This document shows, piece after piece, positions 2-41,947 of a stretch of DNA of 64,000 nucleotides. A program made the position numbers and the translations under genes. The notes beneath the pieces are model-generated. The model was given only the letters and a program-made list of their open reading frames with translations. It was not told where the DNA came from and did no database searches. How positions within the stretch are numbered: the stretch's first letter is position 1; each line of letters opens with the position of its first letter. Source of the DNA: a bacterium (lineage in GTDB: Bacteria; Zhuqueibacterota; Zhuqueibacteria; Oceanimicrobiales; Oceanimicrobiaceae); the NCBI GenBank assembly GCA_037446635.1, contig JBBIIG010000014.1:16294-80293 (forward strand), given 5' to 3'.

Positions 2-178
2 CAGCGTACGGACAACCGCAGTGACTACGGAATGCAATGCCGGGTCTATTTTGTGGATGGCCATTTCACCGGCGTACCGAGTAAGCAAATGATTCAGGTA
101 GCCTTGCAGCACGCGCTGGCTGAGCAACAGGGAATCTCAGTCTTAATTACACGGAGCAATAATGGAGGATTGAATTGA
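2..178 (+). CDS. 3' end of a gene that begins upstream of the window (partial); hypothetical protein
   Basis: Frame 2 is open from the window edge to TGA at 176-178 (...GMQCRVYFVDGHFTGVPSKQMIQVALQHALAEQQGISVLITRSNNGGLN*). No motif recognised. Confidence 0.3.
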   Translation, partial: QRTDNRSDYGMQCRVYFVDGHFTGVPSKQMIQVALQHALAEQQGISVLITRSNNGGLN

Positions 179-259
179 TGGATTAATGAAAGACAAACCG
201 CATGAATCCACCGATCCATATATCCATTAATCCTTTGGAAATTTAGAGGAGAAAAGACG

Positions 260-1246
260 ATGACACTCAAAGTAATCTTCTTGACGGGTTTCATTATGGT
301 GTTGGCTTCCGCGCTCTACGCACAGTCAAAAGATTTGCCAGCGGAGTACAAACAGATTCTGCCGCGCGGACAAATTGCGGCCATCACGCAGCCGCAATTT
401 GTTCCAGCCGACAAAGCCGAAATCGCCGATGACTCGTGGGTGCTGGGCGTGGTCATCGACGGTCAGGCACGGGCGTACAGCTTGAATCTGTTGAACAGCC
501 ATGAAGTGGTGAACGACCAAATCGGAGAGCAGGCTTTTGCCGCGGTGTGGTGACCGCTGGCTAATACCGGCGTCGTGTACGACCGCAAATATCAAGATAA
601 AACCATCACGTTTGAAGCTTCGGGCGGGCTGCTAAACAGCGCGTTGGTCATGCAGGATCGCGAGACCGATAGTTACTGGCCGATTATGCAGGGCGAGGCC
701 ATCGCCGGCGAAATGAAGGGGACGAAGTTAAAAGAAATGCCGGTCGCTGAAAAAGTCCAGTGGAAGGATTGGGTCAAAAAGCACCCGAACACATTGGTGC
801 TCTCGGTGAACGGCCGCGAAGACGGCTTCAATCCCTACAAAACATATTTTGAATCGAAAGAAGGCTTTCGCGGGACGGCGGCAAAGGATCGGCGTTTGGC
901 AACTAAGGAGCCGATCTTCGCTTTTCATTATCAAGGAAAAAGTTACGCGGTACCTTATAAGAATTTTGAGGGCGGCAAAACCTTCGATTTGAATGGTGTG
1001 AAACTCTTTCTCTATCGTCCGCCAAAATCCGAAATTTTCTACTCCACCGCGGCCTTTGCGGCTGCGGGTGATGGGTTTAAGATCGAAAACGGAAAGTGGT
1101 ACCACGTGGATTCGGGCTGCCAGTTTAATCCGAATTCGGGTTCATTTGAAAAGGGACCGGGAGCGTGCCCGGAGAAATTTCATGGGTTTGATACCTTTTG
1201 GTACAATTGGAGTTTGTCCAATCCGGATACCCAACTTTTACGGTAA
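260..1246 (+). CDS. Secreted DUF3179-family protein with an in-frame TGA at 551-553 (candidate selenocysteine). The ORF track splits it into 260-553 and 575-1246.
   Basis: RBS AGAGGAG 8 nt before ATG 260. Signal peptide MTLKVIFLTGFIMVLASALYAQS. Both ORF-track pieces are in the same frame and only the TGA separates them. The read-through sequence ...FAAVW-U-PLANTGVVYDRKYQDKTITFEASGGLLNSALVMQDRETDSYWPIMQGEAIAG... matches what I recall of DUF3179 (..AVTYCPLCNSGIVFDR..FGVSGLLYNSNLVMYDRETxSLW..GEAIAG..), with the TGA at the first Cys. Confidence 0.55.
570..586 (+). promoter_or_regulatory. Candidate bacterial SECIS-like hairpin, 17 nt downstream of the in-frame UGA
   Basis: GGCGUCG-UGUA-CGAC(C)GC gives a 6-bp stem with a 1-nt bulge. 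The tetraloop contains GU, and the loop G is 24 nt after the UGA. Weak, and not validated against a SECIS model. Confidence 0.3.
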
Positions 1247-3130: not shown

Positions 3131-3172
3131 TTAATCCAAATGGGAGTAATGGATTATTGGATCGTTGGATCG
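3131..3172. repeat. 8-bp-periodic GGAKTRWT repeat array, family F
   Basis: TTAATCCAAATGGGAGTAATGGATTATTGGATCGTTGGATCG. The same periodic motif is seen at 162-233, 13547-13642 and 25587-25826. A hairpin TGCCCGCC..GGCGGGCA follows. Confidence 0.45.
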
Positions 3173-3280
3173 TAACGCAAACCTCAGGTTTGCCCGCCTG
3201 CCTAAGGCCTCTGGCGGGCAGCTCAAAGCGGAGCTTTGAGTTACATATATAAAATTATCCAAGCTAAAAGGAGCAGAATC

Positions 3281-13546: not shown

Positions 13547-13642
13547 GATTGGAGTGATGGAGCGTCCATCGTGAAGTGATAAAGGGGAGTAATGGAAAAA
13601 CAACGCATCAATCCATTAATCCAGCAATCCATCACTCCATTA
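13547..13642. repeat. 8-bp-periodic GGAKTRWT repeat arrays in inverted arrangement, family F
   Basis: GATTGGAGTGATGGAG..GGGGAGTAATGG on the + strand, then CATCAATCCATTAATCCAGCAATCCATCACTCCATTA in reverse-complement orientation. It lies just upstream of gene 13668. Confidence 0.45.
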
Positions 13643-25586: not shown

Positions 25587-25826
25587 ATGGAGTATTGGAT
25601 TGATGGAGTAATGGATTAATGCGCCAGCGTTCCCACTCCTTGCCAAGGAGGGGGTTAGGGGGGTCGGTGATCTGATGTGGAGTTGTGGAGTACTGGATTA
25701 ATAGATGACTGCTTTGGGACGATGCGCTCTTCGCTTGACCCGTACGAATGTGCGCTTTTTCATCACTCCACTACTCCATCAATCCATTACTCCAATAATC
25801 CAATAATCCAATAATCCATCAACTCC
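25587..25826. repeat. Composite ~240-bp element bounded by inverted 8-bp-periodic GGAKTRWT arrays, family F
   Basis: + arrays GGAGTATT GGATTGAT GGAGTAAT GGATTAAT (25587-25621) and TGGAGTTG TGGAGTAC TGGATTAA (25676-25705). Reverse-complement array CCATTACTCC AATAATCC AATAATCC AATAATCC ATCAACTCC (25762-25826). It fills the gap between the sigma-54 activator and the Ser/Thr kinase gene. Confidence 0.5.
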
Positions 25827-29998: not shown

Positions 29999-32740
29999 AT
30001 GCCAACGGTACGGTTTACAAAATCAATTTTATGGACGTTGCTGGCGAGCGCGATATTGCTGGCCGCAACGAACCTGTGGGCGGCGGGAGAATTCGTTCTA
30101 TCCACGCGCTCCGATTTTTCCACCAATGATCGCATTTTCACCCGCGACGACACGCTGTTCATGAAAGTCATTGTGCCCAATATCGATGTCACTGAAATTC
30201 ACGACAACGAATTTCGTTTGCACGCTGAGAGCGGCGGCGGAAATTTCGAGGGCAAATTCACCAACCATCTGAACGGCACCTTCACCGCGAAGCTGGCGCT
30301 AAAAAACGCCGATCCCGGCGAAGCTAACTGGGAATGGCGCGGCCGCATCCGCGATCGCCACGGCCGCGAATTTGAAGCCGAAGTGAATCTGCAAATCGTC
30401 GCCAGCATCAATGGCGATATCGAAGTGAGGCTCAAGGGTAAGATTGAGGCACTGGGTGCGGATTTTGTCGTTGTCCAAAAAACGAAAGTCTTTGTGGATG
30501 CCCATACCCAAATCGTTGATGAAAATGGACAGGCGTTGACGTTCGTCGATTTGCGCGTCGGGCAGTCGGTGACAGTGACCGCGGTACGGAAAGAGAACGG
30601 CGATCTACTGGCGCGGCGCATCGCGTTTGTTTCGCGTTCGGAAAACGAACTGGAGTTGAAAGGCGTCATCGAAAGCATCGACGAAAGCAGTCTCGTGGTG
30701 CTTGGTCTCACGTTCAAGGTCGATGCCAACACCGAAATTGAAGACCACGACAACAACCCGATTTCGTTGAATGATTTATCGGTTGGCCAGTTCGTGGAAA
30801 TCAAAGCGAAAATTCAGAGCGACGGCTCGCGGCTGGCGCTGCGCATCCGCGTTGAAGATCACTCCGGTGAAATCGAATTGAAGGGGAAAATTGAAGCGCT
30901 GGGCGACCACAGTTTGGTTGTCTCCGGCGTGACGTTTGAAGTTACAGCGAATACCGAAATCCTCGGCGACGATAACCAGCTTATTTCGTTTGCCGATTTG
31001 CAGGTCGGCTTTTTGGTGGAGGTGAAAGGCATTCCAACTCAAGGGGAAACGATCATGGCAACGCGCATCAAAGTGGAGGGAGAATTATTTGTCGATGATG
31101 AAATCGAGTTTACCGGGCTGGTGTTCGAGGTCGGCGATCATTTCATCGTGGTTTCCGGGTTGCGATTTGAAGTGAGCGCCGCCACCGTGATTTTAGATGA
31201 CGACAATCATCCCATTACTTTGGCCGACATTCGCGCCGGCGTGTTTGTGGAAATTCGCGCGGACGTTGCCGCCGATGGCTCATTGCAAGCGACCAAAATT
31301 AAAATCGAAGATCGCTTCGACGATGAGGTCGAATTGACCGGCGAAATCGAAAGCATCGGAGAAAACACCCTGACGGTCGATGGCAAAGTTTTTGTGGTCA
31401 ACGAAAGCACGGTGGTGCTGGACAACCGGAACCTGCCGATTCCCTTCAGTGCGCTGCAGGTTGGGATGCTCGTCGAAGTGCGCGCTGATTTGCAGTTGGA
31501 CGGCTCGCTGCTGGCGACGCGCATCAAAATCGAAGATCGCGATGACGACGAAGTGGAGCTGACGGGCCGCATTGAGGCGATTGTTGGCCAAACGCTGGTG
31601 GTCGGCGGCTTCACGTTCACCGTGGACGCCAACACCGTTGTTCTCGACAACCGCAATAACGCAATCGCCTTTGCCGACCTGCGCGTTGGGTTGATTGTGG
31701 AGATTCGCGCCGATAAGCAATTGGACGGAACGCTGCTCGCCACCCGCATCAAAATTGAAGACCGCATGGCAGACGAAGTGGAAATCACCGGATTGATTGA
31801 AGCCCTCACCGAGTCCGCGATCACCGTCGCAGGCCAAACCTTCCTGTTCACGGAAAACACCATCGTGCTGGATAATAACAATTTGCCCATTCCGCGCGCG
31901 AATCTTTCGGTGGGGCAGCGGGTGGAAATCAAAGGCGATCTTTTGGCGGACGGCACGCTCATCGCGCTGCGAATAAAATTAGAGGACGGCGCCAACAACG
32001 AAGTGGAGGTTGAAGGGCCAATCTCCGCGGTTGGTCTCGGCACGCTTGCGGTTCTGGAAAATAATTTCATCGTCAACCTCGGCACCGAGATTCTCGACAT
32101 CAACAATTTGCCAATCACATTGGGCGATTTGTTAGTTGGACAGGTCGTGAAAGTGCGCGCTGTGCTGGAACTGAACGGCACGCGCATCGCTACGCGCATT
32201 CAGTTGAAAAACGTGGTTGTGATGTCAGGCAATATCGCGCAGGTGAACGTGAATAGCGTGGTGATTTTGAATAAAGTTGTGAAGATTGATGCCAACACGT
32301 TGATTCTGGCCGAACAGAATCGCGCCATCGCTTTTGCGGATTTGAAAGTCGGCGACCGCGTGGAAGTGCGCGGTGAGCCGCAGCCCAACGATGAAGTAAA
32401 CGCGACGAAAATCAAAACTCAGCAGCCGAATGTGATTACCGGTATCGGCGATTCTGATGCGGGTTCCAACCTTCCCAAGCAGTTTGCGCTGGAGCAGAAT
32501 TATCCCAATCCCTTCAACCCGAGCACGAACATCAGTTACAATCTCGCGCGCGACGGCCGGGTTCGTCTCGCGGTGTACAACTTGCTGGGTCAGCGAGTCG
32601 CCACGCTGGTGGACGAGGTTCGCCCGGCTGGGAGTCACACTTTAACCTGGAATGCCGCGAATCTTCCCAGCGGCATTTACATCTACCGTCTGGAAGCCGG
32701 CGGCAATGTGTTGTCGCGGCGGATGACACTTTTGAAGTGA
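29999..32740 (+). CDS. Large T9SS-sorted protein built from ~10 tandem DUF5666-like repeats
   Basis: RBS AGGAGGA before ATG 29999 (the ORF track starts at 29939). The repeat unit is ..EVELTGxIEAIGxxTLVVxGxTFxVxANTxVLDxxNxPIxFADLxVGxxVEVRAxxQxDGSLLATRIKIED. C-terminus FALEQNYPNPFNPSTNISYNL..GIYIYRLEAGGNVLSRRMTLLK. The antisense ORFs across the repeats look spurious. Confidence 0.8.
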   Translation: MPTVRFTKSILWTLLASAILLAATNLWAAGEFVLSTRSDFSTNDRIFTRDDTLFMKVIVPNIDVTEIHDNEFRLHAESGGGNFEGKFTNHLNGTFTAKLALKNADPGEANWEWRGRIRDRHGREFEAEVNLQIVASINGDIEVRLKGKIEALGADFVVVQKTKVFVDAHTQIVDENGQALTFVDLRVGQSVTVTAVRKENGDLLARRIAFVSRSENELELKGVIESIDESSLVVLGLTFKVDANTEIEDHDNNPISLNDLSVGQFVEIKAKIQSDGSRLALRIRVEDHSGEIELKGKIEALGDHSLVVSGVTFEVTANTEILGDDNQLISFADLQVGFLVEVKGIPTQGETIMATRIKVEGELFVDDEIEFTGLVFEVGDHFIVVSGLRFEVSAATVILDDDNHPITLADIRAGVFVEIRADVAADGSLQATKIKIEDRFDDEVELTGEIESIGENTLTVDGKVFVVNESTVVLDNRNLPIPFSALQVGMLVEVRADLQLDGSLLATRIKIEDRDDDEVELTGRIEAIVGQTLVVGGFTFTVDANTVVLDNRNNAIAFADLRVGLIVEIRADKQLDGTLLATRIKIEDRMADEVEITGLIEALTESAITVAGQTFLFTENTIVLDNNNLPIPRANLSVGQRVEIKGDLLADGTLIALRIKLEDGANNEVEVEGPISAVGLGTLAVLENNFIVNLGTEILDINNLPITLGDLLVGQVVKVRAVLELNGTRIATRIQLKNVVVMSGNIAQVNVNSVVILNKVVKIDANTLILAEQNRAIAFADLKVGDRVEVRGEPQPNDEVNATKIKTQQPNVITGIGDSDAGSNLPKQFALEQNYPNPFNPSTNISYNLARDGRVRLAVYNLLGQRVATLVDEVRPAGSHTLTWNAANLPSGIYIYRLEAGGNVLSRRMTLLK

Positions 32741-32831: not shown

Positions 32832-33042
32832 TGTGAAATGATTCTGTAACCCGGGGGGGCGATTCATGAATCGTCCCTCCGGGATCCCATAATTATCGCC
32901 TTTCTCCTTAAATCAAAAGCAGGCGCGGACGTTTGAAAGTCTCGCGCCTGCTTTATTTTTCTGGATGAAATTTTTCATTCAAAGGGTTGCCTTAGTTGCA
33001 AAGATTGTTAGATTGATGGATTAATTCAAGGAGACCAAATTC

Positions 33043-34434
33043 ATGCCGACCGAAAAATTCGACGCCATCGTCATCGGCTCCGGACAGGGTGGGGGGCCGC
33101 TTGCCACCACCCTCGCCAACGCCGGCTGGAAAAGCGCGCTCATCGAAAAAGAGCACGTGGGCGGCACCTGTGTGAACGAAGGCTGCACGCCGACGAAAAC
33201 TATGGTCGCCAGCGCCCGCGTGGCGTATTTGACGAGGCGCGCTGCGGACTACGGGGTCCACACCGGGCCGATCAGCGTGGATATGAAAAAAGTGCGCCAG
33301 CGCAAGCGGGACATCGTCACCAGCTTCCGCAGCGGCAGCCAGAAGCGAATGGAGAGCACTAAAAATCTCGAGCTGATTTTTGGCGAAGCGCGCTTCACGG
33401 CGCCGAAAACCATCGAAGTGAAATTGAACGCGGGCGGCGTGCGACAAATGGCCGCCGATAAAATTATCATCAACACTGGCACGCGGCCGGTGAATCCACC
33501 GGTGCCGGGACTCGATCAGGTTCCCACGCTCAACTCAACTTCGATCATGGAACTCGACACCGTGCCGAAGCGCCTGCTGGTAATGGGCGGCGGCTACATC
33601 GGTTTGGAGTTCGGACAAATGTTCCGGCGTTTCGGCAGCGAGGTGACGATTGTCCAGCGCGGCAAGCAACTGCTGGCGCGCGAAGACGACGACGTAGCCG
33701 ATGAGGTCGCAAAAATTCTGCGCGCAGATGGCATCGAAGTGCTGCTGGAAACCGAAGCCGTGAGCGTTTCAAAAAATTCGAATGGCGAAATTAATCTCAA
33801 AGTCAAAAACAGCGCGGGCGAACGAACGCTGACCGGGACGCATTTTCTGGTGGCGGTGGGTCGTATTCCCAACAGCGATCGCCTCAACCTCGAATCCGCC
33901 GGCGTGAAGCTTGACAAACGCGGCTTCATTCAAGTAAACGAGCGGCTCGAAACCTCGGCGGCGGAGGTGTACGCCCTCGGCGATGTGAAGGGCGGACCGA
34001 TGTTCACTCACATTTCTTACGATGATTTTCGCATCCTGCGCGCCAATCTTTTGGAAAAGGATGGCGCCGCGATCACGGGGCGGCTGGTGCCCTACACGGT
34101 GTTCATCGATCCGCAATTAGGCCGCGTGGGATTGACCGAAACCGAAGCCCGCGAAAGAGGCTTGAATTTCAAAGTCGCGAAAATGCCCATGAATTACGTC
34201 GCTCGCGCGTTGGAAATGGACGAGTCCCGCGGCTTCATGAAAGCCGTTGTGGATGCCGGCAGCAAACAAATTCTCGGCGCCGCGATTTTTGGCATCGAGG
34301 GCGGGGAGATGATGGCGGCCCTGCAAATAGCGATGATGGGCAAGCTGCCGTACACCGTATTGCGCGACGCCGTCTTTGCGCACCCCACTTTAGCGGAGGC
34401 CTTCAACAATCTTTTCTCGACATTGGATTCGTAG
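33043..34434 (+). CDS. Class-I pyridine nucleotide-disulfide oxidoreductase (FAD/NAD(P)-dependent; dihydrolipoamide dehydrogenase/mercuric reductase-like core, without an HMA domain)
   Basis: RBS AAGGAG. FAD site [12 protein letters not shown]. Redox disulfide [16 protein letters not shown](P) site [14 protein letters not shown]-terminal dimerisation-domain His (AHPTLAE). Confidence 0.85.
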
Positions 34435-37120: not shown

Positions 37121-37130
37121 TAAGCAATTT

Positions 37131-37178
37131 TCGAAAATCGGATAACGTTATTCGGTTTTCGATTTCCGATTTCCGAAT
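37131..37178. repeat. 7-bp-period ATTTCCG/CGGAAAT-type repeat cluster, family G
   Basis: TCGAAAATCGGATAACGTTATTCGGTTTTCGATTTCCGATTTCCGAATCC. It is related to the tandem array at 41831-41923. Confidence 0.4.
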
Positions 37179-37249: not shown

Positions 37250-37281
37250 AACCCTGTCAGGGTTTCAAACCCTGACAGGTT
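37250..37281. repeat. Family E palindromic element (AACCCTGTCAGGGTT-TC-AAACCCTGACAGGTT)
   Basis: Two abutting copies of the 15-bp palindromic core seen at 1997-2029 and 56364-56379. Confidence 0.5.
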
Positions 37282-41823: not shown

Positions 41824-41830
41824 GTGTCGC

Positions 41831-41923
41831 AAATCGGAAATCGGAAAACGGAAATCGCAAACCGGAAAACGTAAACCGTAAATCGGAAATCGAAAAACGT
41901 TATTCGATTTCCGTTATTCGATA
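41831..41923. repeat. Tandem 7-bp repeat array (AAATCGG/AAAACGG/AAACCGT, ~10 units) followed by inverted units (TATTCGA TTTCCGT TATTCGA)
   Basis: aaatcgg aaatcgg aaaacgg aaatcgc aaaccgg aaaacgt aaaccgt aaatcgg aaatcga aaaacgt tattcga tttccgt tattcga. It lies between the two PorV/PorQ paralogs. Confidence 0.6.
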
Positions 41924-41947
41924 TGCGGAATTGCATAGGAGTACAGC

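What the first reader, a model, noticed from the sequence alone, without database searches (positions are those of the whole stretch)
25587..25826. Dispersed 8-bp-periodic GGAKTRWT repeat arrays in inverted arrangement upstream of + strand genes
Arrays of 8-mers such as GGAGTATT GGATTGAT GGAGTAAT GGATTAAT recur at 162-233, 3131-3172, 13547-13642 and 25587-25826. Each is intergenic and within ~100 bp upstream of a + strand start (the DUF3179, cupredoxin, transglutaminase-like and Ser/Thr kinase genes). Each contains units in both orientations, so the arrays form long imperfect inverted repeats. The recurring core GGATTAATCC is itself a perfect 10-bp palindrome. The largest element (25587-25826) has three arrays and fills the whole gap between a sigma-54 activator and the kinase gene. 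No ORF explains them. The periodicity and conservation suggest binding-site arrays for an unknown regulator, structured 5' leader RNAs, or a MITE-like element.
Basis: seen in the sequence. Interest (0 to 1): 0.65.

Follow-up and report, generated by a model that had tools for sequence, protein, structure and literature searches.

The report
Gene-less inverted octamer-repeat hairpin elements
The 8-base repeat arrays are real, and they look like the empty "arms" of a small, widespread, probably selfish element that in its complete form brackets a four-helix-bundle (23S-rRNA-intervening-sequence / Avd-like) protein gene, rather than control sites for the genes next to them.

Summary
The 8-bp periodic arrays are real: 23 unit-dimer matches against about 1 expected. 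They lie at the four stated sites plus a fifth at 33002-33025. The claimed GGATTAATCC palindrome does not occur. Units are TGGA[G/T]T plus two freer bases, usually about 4 per arm. A G-rich arm is followed by its reverse complement.

A pattern scan found the same arrays in more than 120 genome loci from many phyla, in every gene-orientation context. In 9 of those loci such inverted arrays bracket a ~140-aa PF05635/TIGR02436 "four-helix-bundle" gene (23S rRNA intervening-sequence protein, Avd-like). The same holds in most of 64 metagenome loci sampled by protein alone. Repeat period and unit sequence change with the protein clade. The one studied member, the Coxiella 23S IVS, has this layout: four heptamers and a 28-bp stem cut by RNase III.

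The window has no such gene, so its arrays are gene-less copies. A second, heptamer family is also present. In relatives, the kinase-upstream element is much smaller, different, or absent.

Best reading: orphan arms of an IVS-type cassette. They probably form RNase III-type stems in read-through transcripts and are probably bound by a cognate four-helix-bundle protein. They are not operators for neighbouring genes. I found no description of the general gene-array link.

The parts
163..186 (+). Element A, G-rich arm: TGGAGGAT TGAATTGA TGGATTAA (3 units)
203..234 (-). Element A, C-rich arm (4 units read on the - strand: AGGATTAA TGGATATA TGGATCGG TGGATTCA). It lies 26 nt before the DUF3179 start at 260.
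   Evidence: fold z -2.2
3131..3173 (+). Element B: one ATTAATCCA unit, then 4 forward units (GGGAGTAA TGGATTAT TGGATCGT TGGATCGT). The partner arm is degenerate (ATTATCCA near 3256).
13550..13600 (+). Element C, forward units: TGGAGTGA TGGAGCGT (13550-13565) and GGGAGTAA TGGAAAAA (13585-13600)
13606..13639 (-). Element C, C-rich arm (4 units: TGGAGTGA TGGATTGC TGGATTAA TGGATTGA on the - strand)
   Evidence: fold z -3.9
25588..25619 (+). Element D, outer G-rich arm: TGGAGTAT TGGATTGA TGGAGTAA TGGATTAA (4 units). The left boundary is shared with relative L310 up to 25602.
25678..25701 (+). Element D, inner G-rich arm: TGGAGTTG TGGAGTAC TGGATTAA (3 units)
25763..25826 (-). Element D, C-rich arm: 7 units plus one degenerate unit, about two arms' worth. 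It includes three identical AATAATCC units at 25791-25818 and ends 21 nt before the kinase start.
33002..33025 (+). Element E (not in the finding): one-armed AGATTGTT AGATTGAT GGATTAAT. It lies 18 nt before the start at 33043 and downstream of a terminator-like hairpin.
37129..37178 (.). Second family, heptamer element H1: AAATCGGA-type arm followed by (TTTCCGA)n
41827..41925 (.). Second family, heptamer element H2: about 10 AATCGGA-type units followed by 3 inverted units (CGTTATTCGATTTCCGTTATTCGA)

Best explanation
The arrays are gene-less copies of the two repeat arms of an 'intervening-sequence-type' cassette. In its complete form the element is (G-rich 7- or 8-nt unit) x ~4, then a ~140-aa PF05635/TIGR02436 four-helix-bundle gene (S23p / 23S-rRNA-IVS protein, a homolog of the DGR accessory protein Avd), then (reverse-complement unit) x ~4. 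It occurs in intergenic gaps, often inside operons, in many bacterial phyla. The window carries only arm pairs or single arms: five copies of the octamer family TGGA[G/T]TRN and two of a heptamer family. How it works, with the basis for each step. (1) Shown for the Coxiella member, inferred here: when the gap is transcribed, the two arms pair into a ~28-32-bp imperfect duplex that RNase III cuts. This separates whatever lies between the arms from the host transcript and cuts the host transcript at that point, as with the 23S rRNA IVS. (2) Inferred: the conserved hexamer of each unit is read by a cognate four-helix-bundle oligomer encoded elsewhere in the genome. That would explain why the hexamer is kept while the two spacer bases drift, and why unit sequence and period track the protein clade. 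(3) Shown by comparison: the arms grow and shrink quickly in place by gain and loss of units. How new copies are seeded is unknown. The arrays are not operators for the adjacent DUF3179, cupredoxin-like, transglutaminase-like, kinase or oxidoreductase genes.
For: About 45 of these loci have a GGA arm followed by a TCC arm, against 1-2 in the reversed order. Gene link: in 9 of the 120 loci a PF05635/TIGR02436 gene sits directly between or against the arms (L085, L027, L040, L043, L102, L057, L023, L100, L095). Only 3 such genes lie elsewhere in about 0.9 Mb. Reverse test on loci chosen by protein only: a period-7/8 array lies upstream of 45/64 four-helix-bundle genes against 4/73 other ORFs, and downstream of 31/64 against 5/73. 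The two arrays are reverse complements of each other in 35/64 against 1/73. The upstream arm is G>C in 49 cases and C>G in 3. Unit follows protein clade: TGGAGT, TGGAAT, TGGATT/TGGATG/TGTATG octamers in one large clade and assorted heptamers in the rest. Arm size has a mode of 4 units (3:22, 4:50, 5:23, 6:5), and the window arms have 3, 4, 4, 4, 4, 3 and 7 units. The window units share the biases that my arm definition did not impose: position 7 is a purine in 89% against 92%, and position 8 is A>T in both. Hexamer kept, spacer free: the variable dinucleotides of the two arms are no more complementary in register than shuffled units (0.495 vs 0.505, p=0.79). Experimental precedent: the Coxiella 23S IVS has three GACAGAT heptamers plus a degenerate fourth before the S23p ORF, with copy number varying between strains, and 28-bp terminal inverted repeats cut by RNase III at the first repeat (PMC4990558). 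The proteins match pentameric PDB entries 2GSC and 2RLD. Avd is an RNA-binding pentamer (bioRxiv 10.1101/2023.10.23.563531). Turnover: relative L310 is 84-88% identical across the flanks but has 2+1 units where the window has 4+3+7. L312 has a different 4-unit array there. In L314 the two genes overlap with no element. The window elements fold better than shuffles (z -2.2 to -5.8).
Against: No PF05635 gene lies in the 64-kb window, and there is no remnant of one inside element D. A cognate protein in this genome is therefore assumed, not shown. RNase III cutting is transferred from one studied relative. Because the spacer dinucleotides are not complementary, the stems carry regular 2x2 mismatches. 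Co-variation of unit and protein could come from co-inheritance of a cassette alone, without any protein-repeat recognition. Arms have 4 units while the solved homologs are pentamers. There is no target-site duplication and no conserved interior, so the way copies spread is unexplained. Gene-less hairpins cannot arise from full cassettes by simple recombination between inverted arms. My genome scan was ascertained on the TGGAKT pattern. A reversed-motif control in viral contigs also gave 32 hits against 77, mostly perfect microsatellites, so part of the 120 genome hits (for example L019, L053, L080) are ordinary tandem repeats.
Confidence: 0.6

Rival explanations
1. Operator arrays: a host transcription factor (for example a ribbon-helix-helix protein, which is known to bind tandem 7-8-bp sites) binds the arrays and regulates the gene immediately downstream.
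For: All five window copies end 18-110 nt before a start codon. The hexamer is conserved while the spacer is free, as expected for protein contacts. From memory, not tested here: MetJ binds tandem 8-bp metboxes, the omega repressor binds heptad arrays in either orientation, and ParG binds ACTC boxes at 8-bp spacing.
Against: In other genomes the arrays occur in ++, --, convergent and divergent gaps (36/31/10/8) and often directly after stop codons. The downstream genes here share no function. Element D lies between two genes that overlap in relative L314, so it is inside an operon. No sigma-70-like promoter is predicted in or next to D. The same arrays bracket a gene on both sides, including its 3' end.
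Confidence: 0.08
2. Classical MITE: a non-autonomous DNA transposon whose terminal inverted repeats are bound by a transposase supplied in trans by an IS element.
For: The arms are inverted, the elements are small, and there are several dispersed intergenic copies. Relatives show presence/absence and size polymorphism. L231 has two hairpins with near-identical loops. In Geobacter metallireducens, analogous octamer pairs are frequently next to IS110- and IS481-family elements (PMC2700814 supplement).
Against: There is no target-site duplication signal: the longest shared flank word averages 3.49 against 3.38 +/- 0.09 in mismatched pairs across 95 elements. The inverted repeat does not extend beyond the arrays. 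The interiors of the window copies are unrelated. The only gene repeatedly enclosed is a 140-aa helical bundle with no known catalytic motif. Unit number differs between arms and between orthologous sites.
Confidence: 0.1
3. Neutral by-product: imperfect microsatellites that expand by replication slippage and become inverted by template switching, with no function and no link to any protein.
For: Three identical adjacent units at 25791-25818 look like recent slippage. Unit number changes fast between relatives. A reversed-motif control also finds period-8 arrays in viral contigs.
Against: Adjacent units usually differ in the two spacer bases while the hexamer is intact, which is not what recent slippage produces. 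Arm length has a sharp mode at 4 units. The G-rich arm comes first in nearly all cases. The arrays are specifically placed around PF05635 genes. TGGAGT is retained across cassettes whose proteins are only 57-79% identical.
Confidence: 0.07
4. Cis-acting structured RNA (5' leader, attenuator or mRNA stabiliser) selected for the benefit of the flanking host genes, in the way REP elements stabilise upstream cistrons.
For: The elements give stable predicted hairpins. They lie inside transcription units. No U-tract follows the stems, so they would not act as simple terminators.
Against: There is no compensatory pairing at the variable positions, no conserved loop or register (registers shifted by 8, 16 or 24 nt pair equally well), and no Rfam family. 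The element is absent or very different at the same site in relatives that keep the same genes.
Confidence: 0.1

Closest known systems
23S rRNA intervening sequences carrying an S23p ORF (Coxiella burnetii, Leptospira; PMC4990558)
   Same: In full-length relatives, a PF05635 four-helix-bundle ORF is enclosed by terminal inverted repeats. In Coxiella the 5' arm is 3 tandem heptamers plus a degenerate fourth (about 4 units, purine-rich strand first), and copy number varies between strains. The 28-bp stem is cut by RNase III.
   Different: The window copies have no ORF, lie between protein-coding genes rather than in rRNA, and use 8-nt units (plus a separate 7-nt family). The published account treats the heptamers as a local feature of one IVS, not as a general family property.
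Paired tandem octa-/heptanucleotide repeat sites of Geobacter metallireducens ('predicted global regulator binding sites', classes 1-3; PMC2700814)
   Same: These are pairs of sites on opposite strands at variable distance. Each has 3-5 tandem 7-9-nt units (GTTGCTYN, TCTCCGTSY, MTYCTGA) with poorly conserved outer units. They are intergenic, including inside operons such as nifDK and proBA.
   Different: The unit sequences differ. The authors proposed IHF/HU or an unknown global regulator and reported no four-helix-bundle gene link. I could not examine that genome.
REP / BIME / REPIN elements
   Same: Short, abundant, intergenic, hairpin-forming repeats, often inside operons. They are present as inverted pairs and thought to depend on a protein encoded elsewhere.
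   Different: REPs are single imperfect palindromes of about 20-40 nt mobilised by RAYT (Y1 transposase-like) proteins. They are not arrays of 7-8-nt units and are not associated with PF05635 genes (from general knowledge; RAYT was not searched for here).
Cyanobacterial STRR heptamer repeats
   Same: Tandem 7-nt units dispersed in intergenic DNA, of unknown function. Two Calothrix MAGs were among the pattern hits (L028, L038).
   Different: I did not test STRR loci for inverted arrangement or for PF05635 genes. The resemblance is a lead only.
Avd, the accessory protein of diversity-generating retroelements
   Same: The same protein superfamily as the gene enclosed by full-length elements (PMC10053308). 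It is a pentameric, basic barrel that binds a defined RNA element.
   Different: Avd works with a reverse transcriptase and template/variable repeats. No RT, TR or VR lies next to the cassettes examined, and none is in the window.
Operator/centromere arrays of ribbon-helix-helix proteins (MetJ metboxes, omega heptads, ParG ACTC boxes)
   Same: Tandem 7-8-bp sites with a conserved core and a free spacer, functional in direct or inverted orientation (recalled from memory).
   Different: Those arrays sit in specific promoters or plasmid centromeres, next to the gene for the binding protein. No RHH gene association was seen or tested here.

Membership tests
IVS-type PF05635 (S23p / four-helix-bundle) cassette | A PF05635/TIGR02436 ORF lies between the two arms | tested here: not met
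   A profile of array-flanked proteins finds no hit among window ORFs of at least 60 aa. There is no remnant in the 139-nt interior of element D. The window copies are gene-less.
IVS-type PF05635 (S23p / four-helix-bundle) cassette | Two arms of tandem 7- or 8-nt units, the second the reverse complement of the first | tested here: met
   Elements A, C and D. B and E are one-armed.
IVS-type PF05635 (S23p / four-helix-bundle) cassette | G-rich arm first, C-rich arm second | tested here: met
   True of all two-armed window copies and both heptamer elements. Cassettes show 49 G>C against 3 C>G.
IVS-type PF05635 (S23p / four-helix-bundle) cassette | About 4 units per arm | tested here: met
   Window arms have 3, 4, 4, 4, 4, 3 and 7 units (the 7 being about two abutting arms). 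The cassette mode is 4.
IVS-type PF05635 (S23p / four-helix-bundle) cassette | The unit sequence matches one used by a protein clade | tested here: met
   TGGAGT and TGGATT units flank proteins of clusters 2 and 3 (L263, L266, L269, L271 and others). The purine bias at position 7 and the A/T bias at position 8 are shared.
IVS-type PF05635 (S23p / four-helix-bundle) cassette | The stem is cleaved by RNase III in the transcript | not testable with these tools
   Shown only for Coxiella (PMC4990558). The window elements give stable predicted stems.
MITE | Target-site duplication flanking the terminal inverted repeats | tested here: not met
   Across 95 two-armed elements the flank word match is 3.49 against a null of 3.38 +/- 0.09.
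MITE | Copies within a genome share a conserved interior | tested here: not met
   Window copies share only the arrays.
MITE | Ends match those of an autonomous transposase-encoding element | not tested
   No transposase lay next to the arrays in the loci I read. No systematic search was made.
REP / REPIN | A single imperfect palindrome unit of about 20-40 nt, with a RAYT gene flanked by the repeats | tested here: not met
   The sequence shows tandem 8-nt units rather than one palindromic unit. RAYT was not searched for.
Transcription-factor operator array for the downstream gene | Sites confined to promoter regions | tested here: not met
   Contexts are ++ 36, -- 31, convergent 10, divergent 8. 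Element D lies between genes that overlap in L314. No promoter-like site is predicted.
Transcription-factor operator array for the downstream gene | Downstream genes form a functionally coherent set | tested here: not met
   The downstream genes are DUF3179, a cupredoxin-like/CarboxypepD_reg protein, a transglutaminase-like protein, a Ser/Thr kinase and a pyridine-nucleotide disulphide oxidoreductase.
Structured cis-regulatory RNA | A defined structure supported by compensatory changes, or a match to a curated family | tested here: not met
   There is no register-specific complementarity at the variable positions. Several registers pair equally well. Rfam gives nothing at gathering threshold or at E<=1.
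CsrA/RsmA-type GGA sponge RNA | GGA motifs presented in hairpin loops | tested here: not met
   In every predicted fold the GGA triplets lie inside the stems, paired to UCC.
Cyanobacterial STRR | Tandem heptamers of the STRR consensus in cyanobacterial intergenic DNA | not tested
   This is only a resemblance. The window is not cyanobacterial: the nearest named homologs are KSB1 and a PorV-like gene is present.

The most novel reading that the evidence does not exclude
Inverted arrays of 7-8-nt units scattered through the intergenic DNA of many bacterial phyla may be the cis-elements of one very large family of selfish 'intervening-sequence' cassettes built around Avd-like four-helix-bundle proteins. 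This would include the unexplained 'global regulator sites' of Geobacter and perhaps the cyanobacterial STRR repeats. Each protein clade would read its own repeat word and period (7 or 8 nt). The paired arms would let the element be cut out of any host transcript, rRNA or mRNA, by RNase III. Gene-less arm pairs like those in this window would be its non-autonomous progeny.
Probability: 0.35. Interest if true: 0.85.

Novelty: new variant of a known kind. Interest (0 to 1): 0.68.

Why it matters
PF05635/TIGR02436 proteins are abundant, often multi-copy, and have had no known function since the 1990s except for the DGR member Avd. Dispersed hepta-/octamer repeat arrays have been recorded in several genomes without explanation. 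The data here tie the two together: most such genes sampled are bracketed by clade-specific inverted arrays, with a fixed polarity and about 4 units per arm. That gives both a testable hypothesis, a sequence-specific repeat-binding oligomer plus an RNase III-cleavable stem. It also affects annotation. These arrays should not be read as operators or riboswitches of neighbouring genes. When they lie inside operons, as between the sigma-54 activator and the kinase here, they may create processing sites that uncouple the cistrons. Repeat words that co-vary with a small protein could also yield programmable RNA- or DNA-binding modules.

Tried and rejected
(1) Looked for the GGATTAATCC palindrome: absent. 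(2) Rfam at gathering threshold on the whole window and at E<=1 on element D: nothing. tRNA scan: none. (3) I first took the >120 genome hits as far above chance, with about 0.5 expected from base composition. A reversed-motif control in viral contigs (32 stretches against 77 for the real motif, mostly perfect microsatellites in both) showed that estimate was invalid. I therefore relied on features the pattern did not impose: polarity, spacer variation, arm size and gene association. (4) Tried to recover the source contig through the exact kinase protein: not on record. The rest of the genome could not be searched for a cognate gene. (5) Searched the window and the element D interior for a four-helix-bundle gene or remnant: none. 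(6) Tested for target-site duplications and for extension of the inverted repeat beyond the arrays: none. (7) Tested for hairpin-register complementarity at the variable dinucleotides: none. (8) Considered CsrA-type GGA sponges, TRAP/HutP-type RNA-binding rings, DnaA boxes, Rho rut sites and ribbon-helix-helix operators from memory. None was testable beyond what the membership table states, and all are kept only as analogies. (9) Literature searches found the Geobacter description and the Coxiella heptamers. They found no paper linking PF05635 genes in general to flanking repeat arrays. The library lacks most subscription journals, so prior description cannot be excluded. (10) The Beggiatoaceae TAACTGA heptamers (PMC4679880) are direct repeats oriented towards start codons with almost no inverted partners, so I set them aside as a different phenomenon.
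Full report
THE OBSERVATION

The window contains period-8 arrays at the four stated places and at a fifth, 33002-33025. The unit-dimer pattern gives 23 matches with up to two mismatches, against 0.98 +/- 0.99 in shuffles. TRF reports the arrays independently. The units read TGGA[G/T]T followed by a purine and a mostly A/T base.

Three elements are two-armed: A at 163-234, C at 13550-13639, and D at 25588-25826. In each, a run of forward units is followed, after 16-140 nt, by a run of reverse-complement units. Element D has 4 forward units, then 3 forward units, then 7-8 reverse units. That looks like one arm pair nested beside another. B (3131-3173) and E are essentially one-armed.

The 'recurring GGATTAATCC palindrome' does not exist in the window. 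The remark that all copies lie upstream of + strand genes is uninformative, because nearly all genes nearby are on the + strand and each copy is also just downstream of one.

A second family with the same architecture but a 7-nt unit (AATCGGA / TCCGATT) lies at 37129-37178 and 41827-41925.

WHAT THE ARRAYS ARE NOT

- Rfam has no match at gathering threshold, or at E<=1 on element D.
- The elements fold well (z from -2.2 to -5.8), but any repeat arm pairs with any inverted repeat arm. In D, registers shifted by 8, 16 or 24 nt are about equally complementary.
- Across 82 two-armed elements from many genomes, the two variable bases of each unit are no more complementary between arms in the best register than after shuffling unit order (0.495 vs 0.505, p = 0.79). 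The hexamer is conserved and the dinucleotide is free. That is the signature of a recognised word, not of a structure maintained by compensatory change.
- The interiors of the window copies are unrelated.
- Across 95 elements there is no target-site duplication and no inverted repeat beyond the arrays.
- No promoter-like site is predicted in or beside D.

RELATED SEQUENCES ELSEWHERE

A scan of one genome per species for 3.5 units stopped at its 120-locus limit. Hits came from Desulfobacterota, Verrucomicrobiota, Planctomycetota, Bacteroidota, Acidobacteriota, Nitrospirota, Chloroflexota, KSB1, Chlamydiota and others.

My first estimate that this was far above chance was wrong. A reversed-motif control in viral contigs gave 32 stretches against 77 for the real motif, mostly perfect microsatellites in both sets. 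Period-8 tandem repeats of arbitrary sequence are therefore not rare, and some genome hits (L019, L053, L080) are of that ordinary kind.

The features the pattern did not impose are informative:
- Adjacent units usually differ in their spacer bases.
- About 45 loci have a GGA arm followed by a TCC arm, against one or two in the reverse order.
- The arrays sit in co-directional (36 and 31), convergent (10) and divergent (8) gaps without preference.

That distribution argues against operator sites for downstream genes.

THE KEY LINK

In L085 and L027 the two arms sit 3-20 nt from either end of a 144-aa ORF. The ORFs are PF05635 '23S rRNA-intervening sequence protein' / TIGR02436 'four helix bundle protein'. 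A profile of these proteins finds a gene directly against the arms in 9 of the 120 loci and only 3 elsewhere in about 0.9 Mb. The proteins are 57-80% identical between MAGs labelled Pseudomonadota, Deltaproteobacteria/Desulfobacterales, Planctomycetota and Bacteroidota, which points to horizontal spread.

I then sampled the opposite way, fetching 80 metagenome loci by protein similarity alone. Of 64 genes with enough flank:
- 45 have a period-7/8 array upstream, against 4 of 73 other ORFs in the same loci.
- 31 have one downstream, against 5 of 73.
- In 35 the two arrays are reverse complements of each other, against 1 of 73.
- The arm 5' of the gene is G>C in 49 cases and C>G in 3.

The unit follows the protein tree. 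One large clade uses octamers: TGGAGT, TGGAAT, TGGATT, TGGATG, TGTATG. The remaining clades use assorted heptamers such as AAGCGGG, GAGACAC, AAGTGAT, GGGTTTC, GGCAGTC and TAGGCAC.

Arms have a sharp mode of four units in this unbiased set (3:22, 4:50, 5:23, 6:5). The window arms have 3, 4, 4, 4, 4, 3 and 7 units. The window units share the cassette arms' purine at position 7 and A/T at position 8. Their mix of TGGAGT and TGGATT is the word used around cluster-2 proteins such as L263, L266, L269 and L271.

The window itself has no PF05635 gene and no remnant of one, so its copies are gene-less.

WHAT IS KNOWN

The family was named for ORFs inside the intervening sequences of 23S rRNA. In Coxiella burnetii the IVS is bounded by 28-bp terminal inverted repeats that form a stem cut by RNase III in vitro. 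The cut was mapped to the start of the first of three tandem GACAGAT heptamers; together with a degenerate fourth, these lead up to the S23p start codon. The number of heptamers differs between strains (PMC4990558). Four units of seven bases make a 28-bp arm with the purine-rich strand first, which is the architecture found here. That paper treats it as a peculiarity of one element.

The Geobacter metallireducens genome paper describes 24, 21 and 8 pairs of sites on opposite strands. Each site has 3-5 tandem octa-, nona- or heptanucleotides, some lie inside operons, and the authors attributed them to unknown global regulators or IHF/HU (PMC2700814).

The proteins match the pentameric PDB entries 2GSC and 2RLD. 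They are homologs of Avd, the basic pentameric barrel that binds a defined RNA element in diversity-generating retroelements.

My searches found no paper stating that PF05635 genes in general are bracketed by clade-specific inverted repeat arrays, or that gene-less copies are dispersed. The library lacks most subscription journals, so this is absence of evidence only.

COMPARISON WITH RELATIVES OF THE WINDOW

Kinase homologs at 81%, 65% and 64% identity lie in syntenic contigs.
- L310 aligns to the window at 84-88% nucleotide identity on both sides of element D, and the alignment runs up to window 25602, inside the first two units. There L310 has only TGGAGTAT TGGATTGT ... TCAATCCA in a 125-nt gap, where the window has 4+3+7 units in 300 nt.
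- L312 has a different array of four TCC-type units at the same place.
- In L314 the activator and kinase genes overlap and there is no element.

So the element lies inside what is probably an operon, is dispensable, and changes by gain and loss of units much faster than its surroundings. The three identical units at 25791-25818 fit recent slippage.

The nearest named homologs are from candidate division KSB1, and a PorV-like gene is present. The source is probably an uncultured FCB-group bacterium.

HOW IT MOST LIKELY WORKS

Shown here:
- The window arrays have the same word, polarity, arm size and spacer bias as the arms that bracket PF05635 genes.
- Those genes are bracketed by such arms as a rule.
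- Word and period follow the protein clade.
- The arrays turn over rapidly.

Shown elsewhere for one member: the paired arms are an RNase III substrate.

Inferred:
- In read-through transcripts the window's arm pairs form ~24-32-bp imperfect duplexes that RNase III can cut. For element D this would separate the activator and kinase cistrons. Four-helix-bundle genes share the strand of the upstream neighbour in 49 of 58 cases, which fits expression by read-through.
- The conserved hexamers are read by a cognate four-helix-bundle oligomer made elsewhere in the genome.
- The gene-less copies are non-autonomous relatives of the cassettes.

Not explained:
- how new copies arise
- why the G-rich arm always comes first
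- why arms have four units when the solved homologs are pentamers
- why one subfamily carries conserved sequence outside both arms

Co-inheritance of arms and gene could by itself produce the word-clade correlation. However, TGGAGT is retained around proteins that have diverged to 57% identity, while the two spacer bases vary, and that is hard to explain without selection on the word.

VERDICT

The element is best filed as a gene-less variant of the IVS-type four-helix-bundle cassette. It is a new variant of a known kind, and not a regulator site or leader RNA for the neighbouring genes.

Confidence that the arrays belong to this family is high. Confidence in the proposed RNA-processing and protein-binding mechanism is moderate. 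The general gene-repeat association that emerged is the more interesting result and deserves a proper census and a binding experiment.

Noticed in passing
window 37129-37178 and 41827-41925: A second dispersed repeat family with the same architecture but a 7-nt unit: AATCGGA-type units followed by inverted TCCGATT-type units. H2 has about 10 forward and 3 inverted units. The two copies share only the arrays.
   Followed up: partly
window 260-553 and 575-1246: The DUF3179 gene is split into two adjacent ORFs matching profile positions 2-61 and 74-292. This is a possible frameshift, pseudogene or sequencing error.
   Followed up: no
window 32918-32958: A classical terminator-like hairpin with a T-run (GCAGGCGCGGAC...GTCTCGCGCCTGC TTTATTTTT) lies between the gene ending at 32740 and array E. 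Array E therefore lies in the next gene's promoter/leader region.
   Followed up: no
window 3177-3243 and about 37253-37279: Three consecutive GC-rich hairpins follow array B. A perfect hairpin, CCTGTCAGGGTTTCAAACCCTGACAGG, lies downstream of heptamer element H1. They are unrelated to the arrays in sequence.
   Followed up: no
L247, L248, L250, L251, L256, L260, L265 (metagenome loci): In the TGGAAT subfamily, conserved sequence extends beyond both arms. On the left it is AAGTTAGTTCGCTTCGCTCACAAT. On the right it is TGGCATAAA...TTAAAAGATCTTTAATTTCAATCAATTGTAGAATTTCCGAGAC. Farther flanks differ, so the true element boundaries may lie outside the arrays in some clades.
   Followed up: partly
L231 832-1582: Two gene-less hairpins with near-identical loops (aaagaacgaaacgaacc and aaagaacgatatgaacc) lie on either side of a four-helix-bundle gene. 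This suggests that whole hairpins, loop included, can be copied.
   Followed up: no
L236 about 1985-2003, and the TGGAGT arrays in general: Each unit TGGAGTNN-TGG carries a GGAG and, 10 nt later, an NTG. These are Shine-Dalgarno and start-codon look-alikes repeated every 8 nt. In L236 the four-helix-bundle start codon lies inside the last unit.
   Followed up: no
Geobacter metallireducens (PMC2700814, supplementary table S4): IS110-family ISGme8 and IS481-family ISGme9 copies sit next to many of the class-1 paired octamer sites, reportedly at a fixed distance. Such arrays may be insertion targets for these IS families.
   Followed up: no
L080 (Metamycoplasmataceae MAG), L019 (Erwinia), L053 (Streptomyces): The search pattern caught long arrays that are perfect tandem repeats in L019 (and near-perfect in L053); L080 alone gave 183 matches in kilobase-long tracts whose sequence I did not inspect. 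These look like ordinary microsatellites or satellites rather than part of the family.
   Followed up: partly
proteins P0121-P0240: A cluster-2 four-helix-bundle protein has more than 1600 homologs at E<=1e-10, and the best 120 are 75-94% identical. Most are on contigs of about 0.5-3 kb, as expected if the cassettes are multi-copy and break assemblies. The collection's contigs are short in general, however.
   Followed up: no
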